A stretch of DNA of 17,902 nucleotides, from IMG/VR virus record IMGVR_UViG_2778261135_000007; one strand, 5' to 3'. A program made the position numbers and the translations under genes. This DNA is from a virus (taxonomy: Duplodnaviria; Heunggongvirae; Uroviricota; Caudoviricetes). Each line of letters opens with the position of its first letter. The first letter of the stretch is position 1. Shown here piece by piece: positions 1 to 7,212 of this stretch. Below the pieces are notes generated by a model. That model saw nothing but the letters and a program-made list of their open reading frames with translations, had not been told where the DNA came from and searched no databases.

Positions 1-19
1 CTATTTGATAAATATTAAA

Positions 20-1315
20 TTAATTTTTCATTGCTTCGTTATGGGGCATGGTTGGGGCAAACTCGCTTAACTGTGTATTTAACAAAGCTACCTGTGCATT
101 ATTGTTTTCAGACATCCATTTTCCGTAGACCTGAAATACCATTTGCGCATCTGCATGGCCCATCTGGTTTGCTATAAATGCCGGGTTAGCACCAGCTGTC
201 AGCGACCAGCAGGCATAAGTATGTCTCGACTGATATGATTTTCGATGGCGGAGTCCGGCACGTTTTATCGCTGCGTCCCACATCTGCCTTATTGAGTCAA
301 CGGTAAAATGGTCACCATAATTTTTTACTCTCGCTGACACTTCAGGTTGAAAAACAAAGGTGCATTTTTGTTTTTCTGTTCTGCCATACTCTCTGAGGTG
401 AACATCAATGATATGCTCTTTGCTCAGTCTCGTTAATGTCATCTGACTCCGGAGAGCGTCGATTGCTGGCTTAATAAGATGAATGACCCGATTGGTTCCC
501 GCCTGTGTTTTTGGTACCGTGAAACGGTCTTTTGCTAAATTTCTCCTGATCATCATTGTTCCATTTTTCAGATCTATGTCCTCCCATCCAAGTGCACACA
601 GCTCACCAGGGCGAACGCCAGTATAAACAGAAACACACCATAAATTTTTTGCTTGCTGATTTCTGCATGCATCGATAAGACGGATAAATTCCTCCCGCGA
701 AAGAGGATCCGGAATGGTTCTTGATTCCTTTAATGGCGAGATCCCCTTAAACGGATTATCTGCCAGGTAACCGTTATCAACACCAAACTGGAACACGGCG
801 TTAAGATTTGTCATGTAATTATTTACAGTTACAGCCGATCTCCCTGGTTGTGTAACAATATAGTTACTTTTGGGGATCTGGTATCCAGTCAGTAGCTCTT
901 TACGAACCTCCAGTAATTTTTCTTTATTAATCGATGAGGCAAGATTTTTTTCACCGATTATGCTCAGGATATTTTTGATGACGGCACGGTATGTGTTGAG
1001 TGATGTTTTGGCGACTTCAGTTTCTTTCAGTGCCAGAAATTTTTCAGCCAGTTCTTTTATGGTTAAATCTTGTCGGGCCTCACCAAATTTTTCCAGATTG
1101 CGTGAGGAGGGAAACTGTTTTGCATAGTCGAAAACACCAGTTTTTATTGCGTAACAAACAGAGGCGCGTAGTTCACCTGCAACGCGCCTGTTTTTTGCTG
1201 TGTCAGGAACCCCCAGATTTTCCCTGACTCTTACGCCTTTATAAACAAACCAGATACGTAATTTCCCTCCATGGTTTTCCACGCCTGTCGGATATTTCAT
1301 TTCAACTTCTCTCAT
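20..1315 (-). CDS. Phage integrase, tyrosine recombinase family
   Basis: 431-aa ORF at the window edge. C-terminal region has the tyrosine-recombinase signature (RHTYACW ... MGHADAQMVFQVYGKWM, comparable to the lambda Int LGHKSDTMASQY box). N-terminus resembles an arm-type DNA-binding domain. Sits next to an excisionase-like gene in the usual int-xis arrangement. True start may be the second ATG at 1300, which has a GAGAGAAG Shine-Dalgarno-like sequence. Confidence 0.85.
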   Translation of the reverse strand: MREVEMKYPTGVENHGGKLRIWFVYKGVRVRENLGVPDTAKNRRVAGELRASVCYAIKTGVFDYAKQFPSSRNLEKFGEARQDLTIKELAEKFLALKETEVAKTSLNTYRAVIKNILSIIGEKNLASSINKEKLLEVRKELLTGYQIPKSNYIVTQPGRSAVTVNNYMTNLNAVFQFGVDNGYLADNPFKGISPLKESRTIPDPLSREEFIRLIDACRNQQAKNLWCVSVYTGVRPGELCALGWEDIDLKNGTMMIRRNLAKDRFTVPKTQAGTNRVIHLIKPAIDALRSQMTLTRLSKEHIIDVHLREYGRTEKQKCTFVFQPEVSARVKNYGDHFTVDSIRQMWDAAIKRAGLRHRKSYQSRHTYACWSLTAGANPAFIANQMGHADAQMVFQVYGKWMSENNNAQVALLNTQLSEFAPTMPHNEAMKN

Positions 1316-1334
1316 TAGTTAGTGTGGCTTTTAG

Positions 1335-1586
1335 TCAAGTAAGATGACGTCTTGGTCTCGCTGATGCCTGGCGCTCAATCCAGCGATCAATTTCTTCCAG
1401 GTTGTAAAAGCATGGACTGTTATCCCATGGCATACCGTCATGAGCGACATGCTTATATTCCCTTCCTTCCATAAACGATTTTTCCCGGGCCTTTTTTAAC
1501 GTACCTTTTTTTATTCCTTTCAGCGCAATTAACTGCTCTTCGGATACCCATTTGCCGGGAGAGACAATCATGATTACTTCGCTCAT
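1335..1586 (-). CDS. Excisionase-like / DNA-binding protein (Xis-like)
   Basis: 83-aa ORF immediately upstream of int on the same strand, with a 19-bp gap. Small basic protein in the canonical xis position. Function inferred from position and size only. Confidence 0.6.
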   Translation of the reverse strand: MSEVIMIVSPGKWVSEEQLIALKGIKKGTLKKAREKSFMEGREYKHVAHDGMPWDNSPCFYNLEEIDRWIERQASARPRRHLT

Positions 1587-1658
1587 CGATTTCTTTATCT
1601 CTTACATCAGACGAGCGCCGGTTGCAGAATACCAGTCACAACCGGCGACAGTTGAACA

Positions 1659-4130
1659 TTAAGAATCAGCCTGACTCGGGATAAGTTTTTGCCAGATAAC
1701 TGAAACGTATTTTGCCTGGTAACGGGCGTCATCAAGTGCATTATGGCGCTCACCTTCGAATGGAATAGCCGTTCTGGCATCGAAGTCTATGGCTTTCCCC
1801 AGCTCAACGATTGTGCGTACATCGCGATCGTTGTAGTAACGCCACGGGCAGGGGATCCCCTGCCGTTCGTATGAACGGCGCAAAATCGTGTTGTCGAAGT
1901 TGGCTCCATTTCCCCAAACCTGAACAAAAAATTCACCGGAGTTTTCGTCGATAAATTCCCGCAATTGTAACAGTGCATCATCTAACGGGATTTCATCGGT
2001 CATAATGGCAGATTGCGCTTCGCGTGATTGCTTAAGCCACCATTTAATGGTGTCCCGATCAATGACTCCGCCAGCAGTTTCCAGATCGATAGTCTTACTA
2101 AATTCCGGTCCCATATCTCCGGTTTGCGGATCGAAAAATATTGCACCTATTGAGATGATCGGGGCATCAGGATTTTTTCCCATGGTTTCAAGGTCGATCA
2201 TTAGATGGTCACACGTCCTGCTGGTGGATGTGATTTCGTGATGACCGTTCACCTTAATTGGATGATCTGTCGTCTCGCCAGTTTCATTATCGCTATTGTG
2301 ATGCTGATTGCCGCCAGTGTTCTCCTTGTGTGGATGTTCAGCGCCTTCCATTTCCTCCGGATCATCTTCCTGAACTTCAACCTGATACTCTTCATCGAAT
2401 GTTTCTTGGTATGTTGCGTCGCCCATCACCGCGCCACAATCAGGGCAGTTGCCGCCGCCGGTCTGACCGCAGGCGGTGCAGACTTTTTCCACTTCCTGTT
2501 GCGCCACTGGTTCAGGCTGTTTCGTTTCTGGCTCGTTTTGTAACGCATTTGGACTGTTTTGTTCCGCTTTTTGGTAGTTCCGTTCCGATTCATGCTGGTT
2601 CTGGTTCACAGAATCGCGGGTCTGGATCCCCTTAACCCATTTCGGATCATTCGGGTCACTAATCCCTTCAACAAATTCACCACGTGATGCAGCAAGCAAC
2701 TTATCGGCGTCAGGCTGGCTGATATTGGCTGCCTGCATAATTTTGTTTACTTCGTCAGCGGTAACTTTTATCGGCTCTGGTTGTTCTGAATCTTCAGCGG
2801 TATCTACATTTTGCGGTAAGCCCGTGTATGTGCCATTTTTTCGGGCAAAATATTCTTCTTTTGTGATTTCAGTAGCGCCAGCAGCCAGTGCCTTATCCAG
2901 ACCAGAAAGTTTGTTTGCGCGACCGTATTTTTCTCCGTCCTTATCTGCGAAGAGGAAATAGAACGGCCCCTCACGCTCTACAGATGGTTCAGCTTCCGGC
3001 GCGGTTTCATTTTTTGGGATATCAGATACCTCAGTTTCCACTGCATCAGTTTGTGTTTCTGATGACTGGAGAACATCAACAGTGCCCAGGTCTGTTTCTT
3101 CATTCTCAAACACGCCCTTTGTCGTCAGGTATTCGCAGATATATTTGTTCAGTGCTACGGGATCTTTGTGAATGTCGATCGGACGCTCACGGACAAGGCC
3201 AAAAATAGTTTGGCGGTCGTAGCGAAGGGCATCAGGCTGTTTGCGCATTGATGCCGAGATACGCTTCCAGTCTTCGCGGTCGTTGTCGATAACTTCTTTT
3301 TTTGCCCAGCGATGGATGCTGCCGTCAATGTTTCCGGCATCCACATCACCAGGCCAGAGAGCGTAGGCCAGTTCGTCATCCAGTGTTTTCCATGTCTGCT
3401 TGTATTCGCGATGAATGGCAGCAATGACCGGGCTGATTTTTCCTGTTGAATTTTCAGTGTACTGTTGATTGGCTCTGGCGCGGGCGAGATCAACAACAGA
3501 CGTGTATTTTCCGGTTTCCTTGCGTTCACCTTCGCGACGTTTTTTCCAGATGCGCATCTCTGCCTGAATTTCGGGCCATTTAGCACCAGGAATACATTTA
3601 TGCTTAACCCACCCAATGGCGTGCAACTTAAGCTCCGGATACATGGCGTTAACTTCTGGCATTTTCATCAACGCTTCAACGATATGTCCGTCGAATGTTG
3701 CCATGTCTTCCTGCAACAATTCTTGTGCGCTAATAACCATATCAACGGTGATGTTTTCACATGTATCGAACTTAACCATGACAGCGTTCTGTACTTCAGG
3801 GGCCAGCTTGTCAAAAGTGACGTTCATCGGATCGGATTCAGTCTCAACCGGGACAAAAGAAGCAGACTCCTCATCCCAGCGGTTTTCCTGCATATATTCA
3901 GCATCCCATGAATCGAGGGCAGGGCGGGGTATGCCAGGTTTATCCTCGCAGACAATAAATTTATAAGCGCAGTCCTGAGCAGCCGGATAATGTTCCAGGA
4001 ATTGCCAGTGAAATTTTGCTCGAGCACGGCGTTCGTCGCCAGCTTCAATGGCTGTGGCTACAGCCACAGCGCCTTCTTCCCTTATTGCCAGTTCGTCAGG
4101 AATAGCGGCGCAAATAAAGACTTTACTCAT
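1659..4130 (-). CDS. Prophage exonuclease (exodeoxyribonuclease VIII-like) with C-terminal DEDDh (DnaQ-like) 3'-5' exonuclease domain
   Basis: 823-aa ORF. C-terminal roughly 180 aa carries the three DEDDh motifs directly visible in the translation: MIDLETMG (Exo I), WGNGANFDNTIL (Exo II), ERHNALDDARYQAKY (Exo III). The middle is an acidic low-complexity linker with a CxxC...CxxC element (CTACGQTGGGNCPDCG). GAGGT Shine-Dalgarno upstream of the ATG at 4130. Confidence 0.8.
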   Translation of the reverse strand: MSKVFICAAIPDELAIREEGAVAVATAIEAGDERRARAKFHWQFLEHYPAAQDCAYKFIVCEDKPGIPRPALDSWDAEYMQENRWDEESASFVPVETESDPMNVTFDKLAPEVQNAVMVKFDTCENITVDMVISAQELLQEDMATFDGHIVEALMKMPEVNAMYPELKLHAIGWVKHKCIPGAKWPEIQAEMRIWKKRREGERKETGKYTSVVDLARARANQQYTENSTGKISPVIAAIHREYKQTWKTLDDELAYALWPGDVDAGNIDGSIHRWAKKEVIDNDREDWKRISASMRKQPDALRYDRQTIFGLVRERPIDIHKDPVALNKYICEYLTTKGVFENEETDLGTVDVLQSSETQTDAVETEVSDIPKNETAPEAEPSVEREGPFYFLFADKDGEKYGRANKLSGLDKALAAGATEITKEEYFARKNGTYTGLPQNVDTAEDSEQPEPIKVTADEVNKIMQAANISQPDADKLLAASRGEFVEGISDPNDPKWVKGIQTRDSVNQNQHESERNYQKAEQNSPNALQNEPETKQPEPVAQQEVEKVCTACGQTGGGNCPDCGAVMGDATYQETFDEEYQVEVQEDDPEEMEGAEHPHKENTGGNQHHNSDNETGETTDHPIKVNGHHEITSTSRTCDHLMIDLETMGKNPDAPIISIGAIFFDPQTGDMGPEFSKTIDLETAGGVIDRDTIKWWLKQSREAQSAIMTDEIPLDDALLQLREFIDENSGEFFVQVWGNGANFDNTILRRSYERQGIPCPWRYYNDRDVRTIVELGKAIDFDARTAIPFEGERHNALDDARYQAKYVSVIWQKLIPSQADS

Positions 4131-4223
4131 TTTGTTTTAACCTCATGACAGATTTAAGGATGAACAAATCCCTGCCATTGCTGGCATATAAGAATGAAAC
4201 CGGATATTTATTACGGAACTGTT

Positions 4224-4415
4224 TTAAAGACCTGCCGGGATTTCGATATTATCCTGGTGAATAACTTTATCGACCGGGTAACAGTTACCGGGAATTTTCT
4301 GTTCGGTTGCTGCAGTCATACACTCCTGCATTGTCCTGTGAACACTGACTGCAATATCAACTGGCACTCCGGAAACAAGAAAAACTGTCAGAACAAGCGC
4401 AAATGCTGAATTCAT
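4224..4415 (-). CDS. ydfD: YdfD-like small membrane/lysis protein (63 aa)
   Basis: Internal start MNSAFALVLTVFLVSGVPVD... gives 63 aa with a hydrophobic N-terminal segment. Start abuts the dicB stop, as in the dicB operon. Sequence matches my recollection of Qin YdfD. Confidence 0.7.
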   Translation of the reverse strand: MNSAFALVLTVFLVSGVPVDIAVSVHRTMQECMTAATEQKIPGNCYPVDKVIHQDNIEIPAGL

Positions 4416-4600
4416 TGTGCACATCCTTTTGGCATCAGACGTAAACGAGCCAGCATTGAAACAATGCATATTTTATTTAATAGCTCCCGTTCTTGTTTTC
4501 TCTTGTTAATGGCATCTTCAGTAAATACAGGGTTACTGATAGTGACACCAATTTCAAAACAACCTTCAGACGTATTAACGTTTGGTAATAACGTTTTCAT
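4412..4600 (-). CDS. dicB: Cell division inhibitor DicB (62 aa)
   Basis: Translation from the internal ATG, MKTLLPNVNTSEGCFEIGVTISNPVFTEDAINKRKQERELLNKICIVSMLARLRLMPKGCAQ, matches the DicB sequence as I remember it. GAGGA Shine-Dalgarno upstream. The longer 97-aa track ORF is an upstream in-frame extension. Confidence 0.85.
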   Translation of the reverse strand: MKTLLPNVNTSEGCFEIGVTISNPVFTEDAINKRKQERELLNKICIVSMLARLRLMPKGCAQ

Positions 4601-4774
4601 TATCGCGTCCTCAACAATGAATTTTGTGATGCAGTGCCTGGTGCCTCCAGGTGACGTTAACCAGTTAACAATTAACGTCGGATACAGAGAATCCACCCAT
4701 AACACTGTTTTTGGTTTTAACTGTTCCGCGTGCGCTTAGCCGCATTCACCGCATCACAAAATTCACTTTAAAAA

Positions 4775-4827
4775 CGGCGGCAGAGCAGTCACGGAGTAAA
4801 ACTGATACCGCCAAACGTCACCAGAAA
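4775..4827 (-). ncRNA. dicF: DicF small regulatory RNA (53 nt; targets ftsZ mRNA)
   Basis: Reverse complement of 4775-4827 reads TTTCTGGTGACGTTTGGCGGTATCAGTTTTACTCCGTGACTGCTCTGCCGCCG, matching recalled DicF over essentially its full length. Followed on the minus strand by a T-run (TTTTT). Lies between the ydfC region and dicB, as in the Qin dicB operon. Confidence 0.85.
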
Positions 4828-4858
4828 ATTGATAACAGAGGGCGTTGCAGCGGTGTTG

Positions 4859-5050
4859 TCACTTAAGCGTATGGTCAACCTGACAACTCGGTGTCCTCAA
4901 CGGGGAAGGAATAACCCCGCCGTACTTACCGCCGCGCCATTTTGCGGGTTGCCACAACCGGAAGCGCACGGTCGAATTAAATTTAACGACACCGTACAGT
5001 GAGACGAACTTCGCCGTGCGCTTTCGTGTTGTGTGCCTGCTTTTAACCAC
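4859..5050 (-). CDS. Hypothetical small protein in the ydfC position (weak call; region may be structured RNA)
   Basis: 63-aa minus ORF between the ydfB-like ORF and dicF. A competing 61-aa ORF in another frame (4897-5082), GC-rich sequence and long inverted repeats (GCGCACGG at about 4964-4974 pairing with CCGTGCGC at about 5012-5021) make the coding assignment uncertain. Confidence 0.3.
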   Translation of the reverse strand: MVKSRHTTRKRTAKFVSLYGVVKFNSTVRFRLWQPAKWRGGKYGGVIPSPLRTPSCQVDHTLK

Positions 5051-5086
5051 GTCAGGCGAGGTGGTATCCTTAAAATCACCACAGTT

Positions 5087-5662
5087 TTAAGGATTCATTA
5101 AGCAATGTCGCAACCACCAATAAATCCGCTTAAGAACATGAAAATTGATTACTGGTATAAAGCGCTTACAGTTGTTGGCGCTGCGTTGTTTGTCTTTAAT
5201 GGAACGTCTTTTTTTGACAGATATCCCGTTGTTCCATTGGGTTTTTTGTCCTCCGGCATCTTTTTTATTGGTTTGGGGGAGTGGATTAATCACCCTCTCA
5301 AAGTGAGATTTATTGGTCCTGGAGTTTGGACTCGTGGATATAATCGTTCTTCGTGCGCACTCGGTATCATCTTCGACATACTTGGTTGTTTCCTGATTGT
5401 TACAGGAGTCGTCAAGTTCTTCTGATGTAAAACCGCAAATGGGGCACGTAACGGGAATTTTGAAAAGCGTTTCTCCGGGTTCCAGAACAAAATTTTCTGC
5501 GGTCTGATTTTGCTTCTCATATTTGTGCTCCGCGTCATTGTGAGAGCACATTCTTATTCTGAGTGCCTGTTTAAACTCACTGAAGCTGAGAGCTTCTTCG
5601 CCTTCGGCAAGGCCTTCGAAGTATTCTTCGTAAGCCTTTTCCATGATTGTGTCGAAATCCAT
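5087..5662 (-). CDS. YdfB-like protein, extended form (about 191 aa) with a CPICG zinc-ribbon-like element
   Basis: Start ATG overlaps the ydfA stop (TGATATG junction). N-terminus MDFDTIMEKAYEEYFEGLAEGEEALSFSEFKQAL.... The C-terminal half is K/N/Q-rich and is antisense to a hydrophobic plus-strand ORF, so the 3' portion may not be coding. Confidence 0.4.
   Translation of the reverse strand: MDFDTIMEKAYEEYFEGLAEGEEALSFSEFKQALRIRMCSHNDAEHKYEKQNQTAENFVLEPGETLFKIPVTCPICGFTSEELDDSCNNQETTKYVEDDTECARRTIISTSPNSRTNKSHFERVINPLPQTNKKDAGGQKTQWNNGISVKKRRSIKDKQRSANNCKRFIPVINFHVLKRIYWWLRHCLMNP
5105..5425 (+). CDS. Hypothetical membrane protein (about 3 predicted hydrophobic helices), antisense to the ydfB-like ORF
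   Basis: 106-aa ORF with three hydrophobic segments (YWYKALTVVGAALFVF, VVPLGFLSSGIFFIGLGEWI, ALGIIFDILGCFLIVTGVV). AAGGA Shine-Dalgarno about 11 nt upstream. Opposite to the operon direction, so it may be only the mirror image of the minus-strand ORF. Confidence 0.2.
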   Translation: MSQPPINPLKNMKIDYWYKALTVVGAALFVFNGTSFFDRYPVVPLGFLSSGIFFIGLGEWINHPLKVRFIGPGVWTRGYNRSSCALGIIFDILGCFLIVTGVVKFF

Positions 5663-5663
5663 A

Positions 5664-5819
5664 TCACTCACCTGAGTTTCTTTCCAGCCAGCGACGGGCA
5701 CCATTTTCGGTTTTAAACGTTTTGCTTTTGGTATACGTCATCGCGGTGAACGTACCGTCCTGGTTGGGGAACACGCCACATACCAGAGATTCGCTGTTGC
5801 CAAGATCGATAGTATCCAT
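5664..5819 (-). CDS. ydfA: YdfA-like small protein (51 aa)
   Basis: Internal ATG gives MDTIDLGNSESLVCGVFPNQDGTFTAMTYTKSKTFKTENGARRWLERNSGE, 51 aa. First gene downstream of dicA on the same strand, as in Qin. The 77-aa track ORF is an upstream extension. Confidence 0.65.
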   Translation of the reverse strand: MDTIDLGNSESLVCGVFPNQDGTFTAMTYTKSKTFKTENGARRWLERNSGE

Positions 5820-5985
5820 GCTGACCTCATTTCCCCTTAACGCCGGGGTAGCGGAACTGTTTGCTGAGAACACCGTGCGGTGTGTTGATGCAAACAAGAT
5901 TAGCCATGACTAACATATTGGTCAAGTGATTTTGTATGTTATAGTTAACATAATTAATATAGTAAAAGATAACTCATTGATGATG

Positions 5986-6393
5986 TTATCTTTTATTTGT
6001 CCGCTGACGGGCTTTTAGTAATTCTTCAAAGAGTTTATTGAAGTTTTTTACTCGAGCTCGCATTTCGGCGAGCTGGGTATCCTGTTCTGATTCTGGCAGT
6101 GCATTAAACAGCTCAAGGAGCTCTAGTTCTTTGGGAGATAAGGCAACTGGCTTCTCAACAGGTGGTGTTGGTTGCTTGTCTTCATCGCCAAATAGAATCC
6201 ATGTTGGTGAGCATTGCAATACTTTGCTGAGGGCAAAAAGGTTCTTCCCTGTAGGTTCACTATCATCCCGTTCCCATTGTGATACAGACACATGGGAGAT
6301 TTTCAGGGCTTTAGCAAGAGACCTTTGGGTGTGTTTGAGGTTTTTCCGACGATACCTAATGCGTTCGCCGATAGTTAAATTTTTTGTATCCAT
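5986..6393 (-). CDS. dicA: Repressor DicA (cI/C2-like HTH repressor of the dicB operon), 135 aa
   Basis: 135-aa translation (MDTKNLTIGERIRYRRKNLKHTQRSLAKALKISHVSVSQWER ... LLKARQRTNKR) matches recalled DicA nearly residue for residue. HTH_XRE-type helix-turn-helix near the N-terminus. Divergent from dicC. Confidence 0.9.
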   Translation of the reverse strand: MDTKNLTIGERIRYRRKNLKHTQRSLAKALKISHVSVSQWERDDSEPTGKNLFALSKVLQCSPTWILFGDEDKQPTPPVEKPVALSPKELELLELFNALPESEQDTQLAEMRARVKNFNKLFEELLKARQRTNKR

Positions 6394-6476
6394 AGTTAGC
6401 TAATGCTAAATCGTATTGACTATGTTTTTGTTAACATCTATTTTGTTAGTTATGACTAACAATCAAGGTGTTTTAA
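6394..6476. promoter_or_regulatory. dicA-dicC divergent promoter/operator region with three palindromic elements
   Basis: 83-bp intergenic region contains TTAGCTAA (6395-6402), TGTTAACA (6429-6436) and a 20-bp palindrome TTGTTAGTtatgACTAACAA (6443-6462). A TTGACT -35-like hexamer (6415-6420) with a TATTTT -10-like hexamer 17 bp downstream faces dicC. This is the analogue of the OR/PRM/PR region. Confidence 0.5.
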
Positions 6477-6707
6477 ATGCTTAAAACTGACGCTCTTTTG
6501 TATTTCGGTTCAAAAACAAAACTTGCACAAGCAGCTGGTATTCGTTTGGCTTCGCTTTATAGCTGGAAAGGGGATTTAGTTCCCGAAGGTCGCGCGATGC
6601 GTCTACAGGAGGCATCTGGCGGGGAGCTTCAGTATGACCCCAAAGTTTATGACGAATATCGTAAGACGAAGCGGGCGGGGCGGTTGAACAATGAAAATCA
6701 CTCCTGA
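6477..6707 (+). CDS. dicC: Cro-like regulator DicC (76 aa)
   Basis: 76-aa translation MLKTDALLYFGSKTKLAQAAGIRLASLYSWKGDLVPEGRAMRLQEASGGELQYDPKVYDEYRKTKRAGRLNNENHS matches recalled DicC. AAGGTG Shine-Dalgarno 6 nt upstream. Divergent from dicA. Confidence 0.85.
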   Translation: MLKTDALLYFGSKTKLAQAAGIRLASLYSWKGDLVPEGRAMRLQEASGGELQYDPKVYDEYRKTKRAGRLNNENHS

Positions 6708-7212
6708 ACAGGCTCGTGAGGCTCTGGATGCCTGGATATGTCGACCAGGAATGACACAGGAGCAGGCGACGATATTAATCACTGAAGCATTCTGGGCTTT
6801 GAAAGAGCGCCCGAACATCGATGTTCAGCGTGTCACAGATGAAGGTGGCGCGGTTGATCAGCGAGCGCTTGGCGTTAATCGAGTGAAGATATTCGAACGC
6901 TGGAAGGCTATCGACACCAGGGATAAGCGTGAAAAGTTCACGGCGCTAGTGCCTGCAATTATGGAGGCTATCCGGATTAATGATTTCAGGTTGTATCGTG
7001 AAATTAGTGACGGAAAAAGCATCACGTACATGATCGCCGGGTTAAACAAAGAATATGGCGATGTGGTGGAGTCCGGACTGCTTTTTGCTGATCCTGCCGT
7101 AGTGGATCGTGAAACTGACGAACTTATAGAAAAAGCAATTGCTTTCAAACTTGCGTATCGACAGCAATACCAACAAAAAGCTGGATGGAATTATGAGCCT
7201 TCTTTTTGCTGA
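6691..7212 (+). CDS. Hypothetical protein in the cII slot (possibly YdaT-like regulator)
   Basis: 173-aa ORF overlapping the dicC stop, directly downstream of the cro-like gene. Family assignment is by position only. Confidence 0.6.
   Translation: MKITPEQAREALDAWICRPGMTQEQATILITEAFWALKERPNIDVQRVTDEGGAVDQRALGVNRVKIFERWKAIDTRDKREKFTALVPAIMEAIRINDFRLYREISDGKSITYMIAGLNKEYGDVVESGLLFADPAVVDRETDELIEKAIAFKLAYRQQYQQKAGWNYEPSFC

What the first reader, a model, noticed from the sequence alone, without database searches (positions are those of the whole stretch)
1659..4130. Large prophage exonuclease with a DnaQ-like DEDDh domain and no adjacent annealase
The C-terminal domain shows clear Exo I, II and III motifs of the DEDDh 3'-5' exonuclease superfamily, which differs from the PD-(D/E)XK fold I recall for the RecE nuclease domain. 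The N-terminal and middle regions are long, acidic and include a zinc-ribbon-like CxxC...CxxC. No RecT or Bet-type single-strand annealing gene lies between it and xis. Its role (recombination, anti-defence or host DNA processing) is unclear.
Basis: partly seen in the sequence, partly recalled or inferred. Interest (0 to 1): 0.45.

Follow-up and report, generated by a model that had tools for sequence, protein, structure and literature searches.

The report
RecE-like scaffold carrying a 3'-5' exonuclease
This is the intact form of the E. coli K-12 pseudogene ydfE: a very common, catalogued but unstudied prophage protein in which the usual RecE recombination nuclease is replaced by a proofreading-type 3'-5' exonuclease, with no DNA-annealing partner gene nearby.

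Summary
ORF 1659-4130 (-) encodes an 823-aa protein. Its C-terminus (aa 642-813) matches Pfam Rv2179c-like (E=2e-67) with all five DEDDh residues (D646, E648, D746, H796, D801). Its only solved relative by sequence is T4 DexA.

It is the last gene of the DicA-repressed dicB operon of a Qin-type lambdoid prophage, just upstream of xis-int. Residues 1-256 are 99% identical to K-12 YdfE, which IS2 truncates. Residues 262-627 are homologous to the middle of RecE, including the CxxC...CxxC ribbon. The RecE PD-(D/E)XK domain and recT are absent.

No annealase was detected in the window, in the complete genome of phage HannyBb (99.8% identical protein), or within 10 kb in 10 intact fused loci from about seven genera. 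Standalone homologues of the domain (56-60% identity) do sit in Erf-SSB-exo-Abc2 modules.

The same scaffold carries other C-termini in relatives. It fails the sequence criteria of the EcD/HREX defence nuclease.

Most likely role: a lytic-cycle DNA 3'-end exonuclease working with host recombination. That role is inferred, not shown. The gene occurs in 65% of complete E. coli genomes and is already annotated. Moderate interest.

The parts
1659..4130 (-). Complete CDS, 823 aa: the intact YdfE-type 'exonuclease' of a Qin-like lambdoid prophage
   Evidence: 99.8% identical to Escherichia phage HannyBb XNS40216.1. At least 80% of the gene is covered in 3537 of 5426 complete E. coli genomes.
4141..4144 (-). 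GAGG Shine-Dalgarno, 10 nt upstream of the ATG at 4130
   Evidence: Read directly from the sequence. No sigma-70-like promoter on the minus strand between ydfD and the gene, so it appears co-transcribed with the dicB operon.
3519..4130 (-). N-terminal folded domain, aa 1-204 (Pfam YdfE_N/YdfE_C in newer Pfam releases), function unknown
3111..3398 (-). Helical domain 'M1', aa 245-340, shared with RecE (about aa 278-370) and with all scaffold relatives
   Evidence: BLASTP against RecE. AlphaFold2 pLDDT is about 85. phmmer segment mapping.
2835..2978 (-). Small beta/alpha mini-domain, aa 385-432, with invariant GPFY...GRANK...EI motif, flanked by acidic disordered linkers
   Evidence: Invariant columns G388 P389 F390 Y391 G403 R404 A405 N406 K407 in alignment A2. 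pLDDT is about 80.
2264..2706 (-). DNA segment 78% identical to Rac recE. It encodes aa ~475-622, including the DKLLAASRGEFVEGISDPNDPKWVKG motif and the zinc ribbon. Its left end marks the mosaic joint with the DEDDh module.
   Evidence: blastn of the window against K-12 Rac. Protein alignment with RecE 455-592, about 85% identical.
2409..2480 (-). Cys4 zinc-ribbon-like motif, aa 551-574: CTACGQTGGGNCPDCGAVMGDATY
   Evidence: Conserved in RecE, in the POCJ13 682-aa 'ExoVIII' and at the C-terminus of Dam-like methyltransferases.
1692..2207 (-). DEDDh 3'-5' exonuclease domain, aa 642-813. Catalytic residues D646, E648, D746, H796, D801.
   Evidence: Pfam PF16473, E=2.4e-67. PDB 8KEL (T4 DexA), E=5.5e-8. 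Alignments. Residue check.
1335..1586 (-). Excisionase, immediately downstream (72-nt gap); no gene in between
20..1315 (-). Tyrosine integrase; prophage end next to rspB in related genomes
4224..4600 (-). ydfD (4224-4415) and dicB (4412-4600), the genes immediately upstream in the same operon
4775..4826 (-). DicF sRNA, which places the exonuclease gene at the distal end of the dicB operon
   Evidence: Rfam RF00039, 72.5 bits, E=1.4e-14

Best explanation
The gene encodes a mosaic early-left-operon protein of a Qin-type lambdoid phage. A RecE-family scaffold carries a catalytically intact DEDDh (DnaQ/DexA-type) 3'-5' exonuclease in place of the PD-(D/E)XK 5'-3' nuclease of RecE. The scaffold consists of a YdfE-type N-terminal domain, a helical domain shared with RecE, a GPFY mini-domain, and a Cys4 ribbon embedded in acidic disordered linkers.

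It is transcribed only when DicA repression is lifted, that is, on prophage induction or lytic growth. It is the last gene before xis-int.

Proposed role (inferred): it trims DNA 3' ends in the induced or infected cell, as an accessory to recombination-dependent replication or repair carried out with host functions (RecBCD/RecA; the phage carries Chi sites and has no annealase or Gam). It does not act as the exonuclease half of a two-component exonuclease/annealase recombinase. The scaffold is proposed to tether the nuclease to a common partner or DNA structure. This would explain why different enzymatic C-termini are exchanged on the same scaffold.

Shown: domain identities, catalytic residues, mosaic joints, gene order, absence of an annealase, distribution.

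Inferred: DNA rather than RNA as substrate, 3'-5' polarity, timing of expression, and the biological role.
For: - Domain and residues.
- RecE homology of aa 262-627 and the DNA-level joint at about aa 622.
- Identity with K-12 ydfE and the IS2 truncation.
- Operon position (dicA-ydfA-...-DicF-dicB-ydfD-exo-xis-int), with no internal minus-strand promoter found.
- Module shuffling on the scaffold: the same N-terminal and middle parts occur with DEDDh, with the RecE PD-(D/E)XK domain, with DUF3799 PDDEXK, with an unassigned 285-aa domain, or with no enzyme domain. P0128 and L015 join a Rac-type RecE N-terminus to a 98-100% identical DEDDh domain.
- Recombination link of the domain: standalone homologues with 56-60% identity lie between SSB and Abc2, next to Erf, in mEpX2 and g341c and in loci L043, L061, L067 and L069. 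Genome Res 2025 (PMC12315714) independently lists DnaQ-like 3'-5' nucleases as lambdoid Rec-module members.
- Closer to the DNA exonuclease DexA than to any solved RNase: the only PDB sequence hits are 8KEL and 8KEN.
- Host dependence: 7 Chi sites in the window against 0.37 expected. The complete HannyBb genome has no annealase, Gam or Abc2.
- Selection: the ORF is intact in 3537 of 5426 E. coli genomes and in viable phages. Fused orthologues of 690-830 aa occur in about seven genera, always in the order exo-xis-int.
Against: - No experiment exists on this protein. The literature searches found nothing.
- A 3'-5' exonuclease would remove the 3' tails that annealases and RecA use. PMC12315714 notes that such nucleases usually inhibit recombination.
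- The same paper does not count DnaQ-type genes located near int as Rec-module genes, and that is where this gene lies.
- None of the 10 intact fused loci has an annealase within 10 kb, so the recombination link rests on the standalone homologues and on the RecE-derived scaffold.
- The family's founding member, Rv2179c, is an exoribonuclease, so an RNA substrate is not excluded.
- The N-terminal fold gave no functional clue.
- Chi density in the whole HannyBb genome (7 in 45 kb) is only about the host average.
Confidence: 0.5

Rival explanations
1. Prophage-encoded defence nuclease of the HREX/EcD type. The DEDDh domain would selectively degrade modified (5hmC-type) DNA of superinfecting T-even phages while sparing host DNA.
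For: It is in the same Pfam family as T4 DexA and E. coli EcD, which protects against T4 when plasmid-borne (PMC12153337). The EcD sequence was recovered and is 38% identical to this C-domain. The gene is prophage-borne and extremely common in E. coli.
Against: - The paper's own sequence criteria are not met: the D90 equivalent is kept as Asp (D718) rather than lost, W152 is replaced by Tyr (Y766), and the D169 position is Lys/Ala.
- The gene is the last in a repressed lytic operon with no promoter of its own detected.
- E. coli B REL606, the classical permissive host for T-even phages (established knowledge), carries an intact copy.
- PADLOC gives only a generic DEDDh hit, E=1.7e-5.
- The closest relatives (56-60% identity) sit in phage recombination modules, not defence islands.
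Confidence: 0.12
2. 3'-5' exoribonuclease acting on RNA, for example host or phage transcript turnover or processing of operon RNAs during induction, as the NCBI product name suggests.
For: The best Pfam model is named for the M. tuberculosis exoribonuclease Rv2179c, and NCBI names many copies '3'-5' exoribonuclease'. According to PMC12153337, the closest structural relative of DexA is the oligoribonuclease Rexo2.
Against: Sequence searches of the PDB find only the DNA exonuclease DexA, and no RNase chain at E<10. The scaffold is shared with DNA enzymes: RecE, and the zinc ribbon in Dam-like methyltransferases. Standalone homologues sit between SSB and Abc2.
Confidence: 0.1
3. Host-DNA degradation or nucleotide scavenging, or an anti-defence nuclease that destroys a host immune nucleic acid (for example retron msDNA or signalling oligonucleotides) early in lytic growth.
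For: T4 DexA contributes to host DNA scavenging. The gene sits in an early lytic operon next to host-takeover genes (dicB, ydfD, DicF). The large scaffold with short conserved motifs could target a host complex.
Against: There is no direct evidence. Temperate lambdoid phages are not known to degrade the host chromosome (established knowledge). There is no match to any described anti-defence family in PHROGs, Pfam or PADLOC.
Confidence: 0.1
4. Evolutionary relic: an accidental fusion carried along by prophage mosaicism, with no current function.
For: It lies in a region of frequent decay. K-12 ydfE is IS2-truncated, and the Shigella and Leclercia copies are fragmented.
Against: Full-length ORFs are kept in 65% of complete E. 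coli genomes, often in several copies, and in viable phages. All five catalytic residues are invariant across genera. The fused architecture and the exo-xis-int order are conserved in about seven genera.
Confidence: 0.03

Closest known systems
RecE (exonuclease VIII) of the Rac prophage
   Same: Same position in a lambdoid early-left operon, upstream of xis-int. Similar size (823 against 866 aa). aa 262-627 are homologous to RecE 278-592 (39% overall, about 85% over aa 470-620), including the Cys4 ribbon. The N-terminal region of RecE likewise has no known function and enhances linear-linear recombination (PMC11611040).
   Different: The first 260 aa are different: YdfE type instead of Pfam Exonuc_VIII. 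The PD-(D/E)XK 5'-3' nuclease domain is replaced by a DEDDh 3'-5' domain. There is no recT, ralR or rcbA downstream. It scores far below the RecE equivalog cut-off.
Standalone DnaQ-type 3'-5' nucleases of lambdoid Rec modules (epsilon34/g341c gene 29, mEpX2 exonuclease; Genome Res 2025, PMC12315714)
   Same: 56-60% identical to the C-terminal domain, with the same catalytic residues, encoded in the early-left operon of lambdoid phages.
   Different: Those are proteins of about 182 aa, packed between SSB and Abc2 next to Erf. Here the domain is fused to a 640-aa RecE-like scaffold, lies next to xis-int, and the phage has no annealase, SSB or anti-RecBCD gene.
T4 DexA (PDB 8KEL) and E. coli EcD ('HREX')
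   Same: Same Pfam family. DexA is the only solved relative found by sequence. The DEDDh residues align.
   Different: 25% (DexA) and 38% (EcD) identity. The residues reported to give 5hmC recognition are not conserved (Y766 for W152; no acidic residue at D169). Those proteins are standalone, of 189-227 aa.
'RecE-2' proteins lacking a nuclease domain (PMC12315714), e.g. the Shigella phage POCJ13 682-aa 'ExoVIII'
   Same: Share the middle region and the zinc ribbon (38% over aa 262-578).
   Different: POCJ13 has no enzymatic C-terminus and is followed by separate RecT and YqaJ/lambda-Exo-like genes. Here an enzyme domain is fused and no annealase follows.

Membership tests
DEDDh (DnaQ-like) 3'-5' exonuclease superfamily | Exo I (DxE), Exo II (D) and Exo III (Hx4D) motifs in the right order and spacing | tested here: met
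   D646/E648, D746 and H796/D801 are invariant in alignments with DexA (D7, E9, D119, H186, D191) and phage homologues.
DEDDh (DnaQ-like) 3'-5' exonuclease superfamily | RNase H-like fold of the domain | not tested
The fold is inferred from the full-length profile match and from homology to the solved 8KEL.
DEDDh (DnaQ-like) 3'-5' exonuclease superfamily | Metal-dependent 3'-5' exonuclease activity | not testable with these tools
   Needs purified protein.
Pfam PF16473 Rv2179c-like / DexA family | Score above the curated gathering threshold over the whole profile | tested here: met
   226.5 bits against 27; profile positions 2-177 of 177.
RecE / exonuclease VIII | C-terminal PD-(D/E)XK 5'-3' nuclease domain | tested here: not met
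   No phmmer hit to RecE 595-866. BLASTP similarity to RecE ends at RecE residue 592.
RecE / exonuclease VIII | NCBIfam NF007259 equivalog score at or above the cut-off | tested here: not met
   282 bits against a cut-off of 1269; only model positions 271-600 are matched.
RecE / exonuclease VIII | Shared non-catalytic middle region with the Cys4 ribbon | tested here: met
   aa 262-627 against RecE 278-592, E=3e-61. 78% DNA identity over window 2264-2706.
Two-component exonuclease/annealase recombinase (SynExo: Red exo-bet, RecET) | Adjacent single-strand annealing protein gene | tested here: not met
   None in the window, none in the whole HannyBb genome, and none within 10 kb in 10 intact fused loci.
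Two-component exonuclease/annealase recombinase (SynExo: Red exo-bet, RecET) | 5'-3' processive dsDNA exonuclease | tested here: not met
   The only nuclease domain present is DEDDh, a family with 3'-5' polarity. The polarity itself was not assayed.
HREX / EcD-type defence exonuclease (PMC12153337) | Loss of the DexA D90 tetramerisation residue (Ala in EcD) | tested here: not met
   Asp is retained at the aligned position, D718. The alignment in this helix is moderately reliable.
HREX / EcD-type defence exonuclease (PMC12153337) | Trp equivalent to DexA W152 and an acidic residue equivalent to D169, for 5hmC recognition | tested here: not met
   Y766 aligns with W152, and Lys/Ala align at the D169 position. 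Tyr is still aromatic, so this is weak evidence.
HREX / EcD-type defence exonuclease (PMC12153337) | Protection against T4 and selective cleavage of 5hmC-DNA | not testable with these tools
   Indirect only: the T-even-permissive E. coli B REL606 carries an intact copy.
Lambdoid Rec-module DnaQ-type nuclease (PMC12315714) | [quoted passage not shown] | tested here: not met
   It lies next to xis-int with none of these genes present. It fits that paper's 'sporadic DnaQ-type nuclease genes very near int' class.

The most novel reading that the evidence does not exclude
The YdfE/RecE N-terminal region would be a dedicated, exchangeable targeting platform, built from folded domains plus a Cys4 ribbon and short motifs in acidic linkers. 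It would deliver interchangeable DNA-end enzymes to one common partner: a 5'-3' PD-(D/E)XK exonuclease, a 3'-5' DEDDh exonuclease, possibly an annealase-like domain, or nothing. The same ribbon also occurs on phage Dam-like methyltransferases. The DEDDh version would then define an annealase-independent strategy of a very large class of E. coli prophages, based on host RecBCD and Chi, in which a tethered 3'-5' exonuclease edits DNA ends during recombination-dependent replication.
Probability: 0.2. Interest if true: 0.6.

Novelty: new variant of a known kind. Interest (0 to 1): 0.4.

Why it matters
The gene is one of the most widespread prophage genes in E. coli. It occurs in 65% of complete genomes, in up to 10 places per genome, and is intact in E. 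coli B (REL606). It has never been characterised. In K-12 it survives only as the ydfE pseudogene, which may be why it has been overlooked.

It shows that the unexplained N-terminal two-thirds of RecE, which matters for linear-linear recombineering, is a portable scaffold used with nucleases of opposite polarity. This gives a direct route to finding out what that scaffold does.

If the DEDDh version takes part in recombination without an annealase, it would bear on how the many lambdoid phages lacking a Rec module replicate and recombine using host RecBCD. If it is instead a defence or anti-defence nuclease, it would be a very prevalent one.

Tried and rejected
1. Hidden annealase. The 205-aa ORF 5087-5704 and all other left-operon ORFs gave no Pfam or PHROG annealase hit. 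phmmer with RecT, Bet, Erf and Sak found nothing in the window or in HannyBb.
3. Idea that the 285-aa C-terminus of sister proteins (annotated 'exodeoxyribonuclease VIII') is a Rad52/Sak-like annealase.
   - Verdict: not confirmed.
4. Defence-system membership. PADLOC gives only a generic CRISPR-associated DEDDh model at E=1.7e-5.
5. Literature on ydfE or on Rv2179c in prophages: nothing relevant. One search was spoiled because 'RecE' matched 'receptor'.
6. The EcD reverse-primer 23-mer was not found in IMG/VR, because I first read it in the wrong frame. The forward primer recovered the gene.
7. The first homologue search was saturated by E. coli copies at 88% identity or more. Diversity had to come from the representative library and from a second search seeded with a sister protein.
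Full report
**What is there.**

The window is part of a Qin-type lambdoid prophage of E. coli. Window 1-8000 is 99.3% identical to a prophage inserted next to rspB in strain STEC299. The minus-strand gene order is dicA, ydfA, a 205-aa ORF, DicF sRNA (Rfam), dicB, ydfD, the 823-aa ORF (1659-4130), xis, int.

The ORF is intact. It starts at an ATG preceded by GAGG. No minus-strand sigma-70-like promoter was found between ydfD and its start. It therefore appears to be the distal gene of the dicB operon, which DicA represses in the lysogen (established knowledge for K-12).

RefSeq calls it 'exonuclease' or '3'-5' exoribonuclease domain-containing protein'.

**The C-terminal domain.**

Residues 642-813 match Pfam PF16473 (Rv2179c-like) over the entire profile, at E=2.4e-67. 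The only solved structures found by sequence are 8KEL and 8KEN, which are T4 DexA, a 3'-5' DNA exonuclease (paper PMC12153337).

The five DEDDh residues are D646, E648, D746, H796 and D801. They align with DexA D7, E9, D119, H186 and D191, and are invariant in all homologues aligned.

The refutation condition it named, a non-DEDD fold, is not met at the sequence-profile level.

**The rest of the protein is a RecE-type scaffold.**

- Residues 1-256 are 99% identical to the product of the K-12 pseudogene ydfE. In K-12, IS2E has removed window 1180-3363, that is the rest of the gene, xis and part of int.
- Residues 262-627 are homologous to RecE residues 278-592 (E=3e-61). Identity is about 85% over aa 470-620, which includes the Cys4 ribbon C551/C554/C562/C565.
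- At the DNA level, window 2264-2706 is 78% identical to Rac recE. The similarity stops at about codon 622, which is the joint with the DEDDh module.
- There is no similarity to the RecE PD-(D/E)XK domain. The NCBIfam RecE equivalog model scores 282 bits against a cut-off of 1269.

**The scaffold is a shuffling platform.**

A search of 1.84 billion representative proteins with aa 1-640 found only 249 relatives. I mapped segments onto the long ones with phmmer. The two alternative N-termini are the YdfE type and the RecE/Exonuc_VIII type. Together with the shared middle parts, they occur with:

- the DEDDh domain, for example P0128, which has a Rac-type RecE N-terminus joined to a DEDDh domain 98% identical to this one;
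- the RecE PD-(D/E)XK domain;
- a DUF3799 PDDEXK domain;
- a 285-aa domain with no Pfam match;
- no enzyme domain at all, as in Shigella phage POCJ13, where a 682-aa 'ExoVIII' is followed by separate RecT and YqaJ-like genes.

*In cis.* None was found in the window. None is annotated or detectable in the complete 45-kb genome of Escherichia phage HannyBb, whose protein is 99.8% identical. None was found in the 20-kb region fetched around the gene in phage Evi (84.7% identical).

*Across species.* A scan of one genome per species returned 80 loci carrying the DEDDh domain.

- Ten carry intact fused genes of 690-830 aa. They come from Escherichia, Enterobacter, Pluralibacter, Atlantibacter, Kluyvera, Phytobacter and an unnamed Enterobacteriaceae genome.
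- Two more, in Shigella and Leclercia, are decayed.
- In every intact one, the order is small ORFs, fused gene, xis, int.
- None has a detectable RecT, Bet, Erf or Sak homologue within 10 kb. This rests on phmmer with a handful of reference sequences at E<1e-4, so divergent annealase families could be missed.

*Standalone homologues.* About 68 loci have a standalone gene of roughly 190-300 aa. In mEpX2 and g341c, and in loci L043, L061, L067 and L069, it lies in the order Erf, SSB, exo. Abc2 follows it in mEpX2, g341c and L067.

The domain therefore has a documented association with recombination modules, but the fused form does not. Genome Research 2025 (PMC12315714) reached the same picture for the standalone genes. 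It counts the DnaQ-like 3'-5' nucleases that lie contiguous with other Rec-module genes as members of lambdoid Rec modules. It leaves out the 'sporadic DnaQ-type nuclease genes ... very near int'. It also mentions nuclease-less 'RecE-2' proteins. I found no description of the fusion itself.

**Defence hypothesis.**

PMC12153337 reports that a standalone E. coli homologue, EcD, cleaves only 5hmC-DNA and protects against T4. I recovered EcD from IMG/VR contigs using the published forward primer. The protein has 189 aa, runs MIDTETLGNG...PFLNI, and has Ala at position 78 as the paper states.

The C-domain here is 38% identical to EcD and 25% to DexA, but 56-60% identical to the Rec-module nucleases. 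At the positions the paper uses as criteria, this protein keeps Asp at the D90 position (D718), has Tyr for W152 (Y766), and has no acidic residue aligned with D169.

The gene lies in a repressed operon. E. coli B REL606, a classical permissive host for T-even phages, carries an intact copy. I therefore rate a constitutive anti-T4 role as unlikely, though not excluded for the induced state or for other DNA modifications.

**Most likely mechanism.**

I commit to the following, at about 50% confidence. On induction or infection the protein is made with the other early-left products. Its DEDDh domain removes nucleotides from DNA 3' ends. The RecE-type scaffold positions it on a partner or DNA structure. 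It serves as an accessory to recombination-dependent replication or repair that relies on host enzymes.

Two observations fit host dependence. The phage lacks an annealase, Gam and Abc2. It also carries Chi sites, 7 in the window against 0.37 expected by chance, although HannyBb overall has only about the host density.

The main objection is mechanistic. 3'-5' exonucleases usually antagonise recombination, so the protein might instead limit or edit recombination intermediates.

Shown: identity of the domains, catalytic residues, mosaic joints, gene order, absence of an annealase, distribution. Inferred: substrate, polarity, timing, role.

**Novelty and verdict.**

The protein is catalogued and extremely common. 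At least 80% of the gene is present in 3537 of 5426 complete E. coli genomes, in up to 10 places per genome, and one 90% cluster holds 23,183 member sequences. Its domain families exist in Pfam.

What is not in the literature I could search is the recognition that it is a RecE scaffold with the nuclease swapped for one of opposite polarity, together with any functional work. I file it as a new variant of a known kind, of moderate interest (0.4).

Noticed in passing
window 5087-5704 (-): A 205-aa ORF whose first ~48 aa resemble YdfB (phrog_2061), followed by a CxxC-containing, low-complexity tail. Window 5045-5561 has no counterpart in K-12 Qin. RefSeq marks ydfB here as a truncated pseudogene, while phage HannyBb annotates the full 205-aa CDS. 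No Pfam hit; phrog_35040, unknown function.
   Followed up: partly
L116 4468-5460 (-), L087 3262-4200 (+); window 2409-2480 (-): The zinc-ribbon motif CxxCGxxGGGxCPDCGxVxGDATY of this protein and of RecE also forms the C-terminal tail of Dam-like (DPPY) DNA methyltransferases. These are encoded immediately downstream of standalone DEDDh exonuclease genes, including EcD. This suggests a portable targeting module shared by phage DNA enzymes.
   Followed up: partly
L011 6001-8364, L013 6001-8340 (sister proteins P0284, P0327, P0129 etc.): Proteins of about 780 aa in Klebsiella, Salmonella, Citrobacter and Enterobacter are annotated 'exodeoxyribonuclease VIII'. They have the YdfE_N/YdfE_C scaffold but no recognisable nuclease domain. 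Their 285-aa C-terminus has a Rad52-like motif (EAxKKSLTDAxKKALSxLGFSADV). The gene is flanked by GamL upstream and by Mu-gp6 and Sipho_Gp157 downstream. Fold searches did not confirm an annealase fold, so the product name is probably wrong and the function is open.
   Followed up: partly
window 2220, 10000, 11506, 11563, 15871 (+) and 12096, 12148 (-): Seven Chi sites (GCTGGTGG) in 17.9 kb against 0.37 expected from shuffles. One lies inside the exonuclease gene at the RecE/DEDDh joint. This is in line with the described class of lambdoid phages that lack a Rec module and carry Chi sites.
   Followed up: partly
L015 (contig JAGZPX010000007.1, labelled Veillonella parvula MAG): This contig carries an 812-aa gene with a Rac-type RecE N-terminus and a DEDDh domain 100% identical to this window's, followed by the same xis and int. 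It is almost certainly a mis-binned E. coli prophage contig, and it is a natural Rac/Qin hybrid.
   Followed up: no
window 10326-10500 (+), 13795-14187 (+), 16697-17082 (+): Rfam finds a sok antitoxin RNA (hok/sok locus, hokD region) and two cspA-type thermoregulator 5' leaders (cspB/cspF-like cold-shock genes) in the late part of the prophage.
   Followed up: no
L123 (E. coli B REL606, 1625794-1628265): E. coli B carries an intact 823-aa copy (WP_000048322.1), while its neighbouring integrase is frameshifted. B-derived laboratory hosts are therefore likely not null for this DexA-family nuclease gene, which is relevant to experiments on DexA/EcD done in such hosts.
   Followed up: partly
L098, L103, L113, L114, L116, L119 (IMG/VR contigs): The EcD protein of the HREX paper (189 aa, MIDTETLGNG...PFLNI) occurs on several viral contigs. 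The 'bacterial' defence exonuclease therefore appears to be phage- or prophage-borne, which the paper does not discuss.
   Followed up: partly
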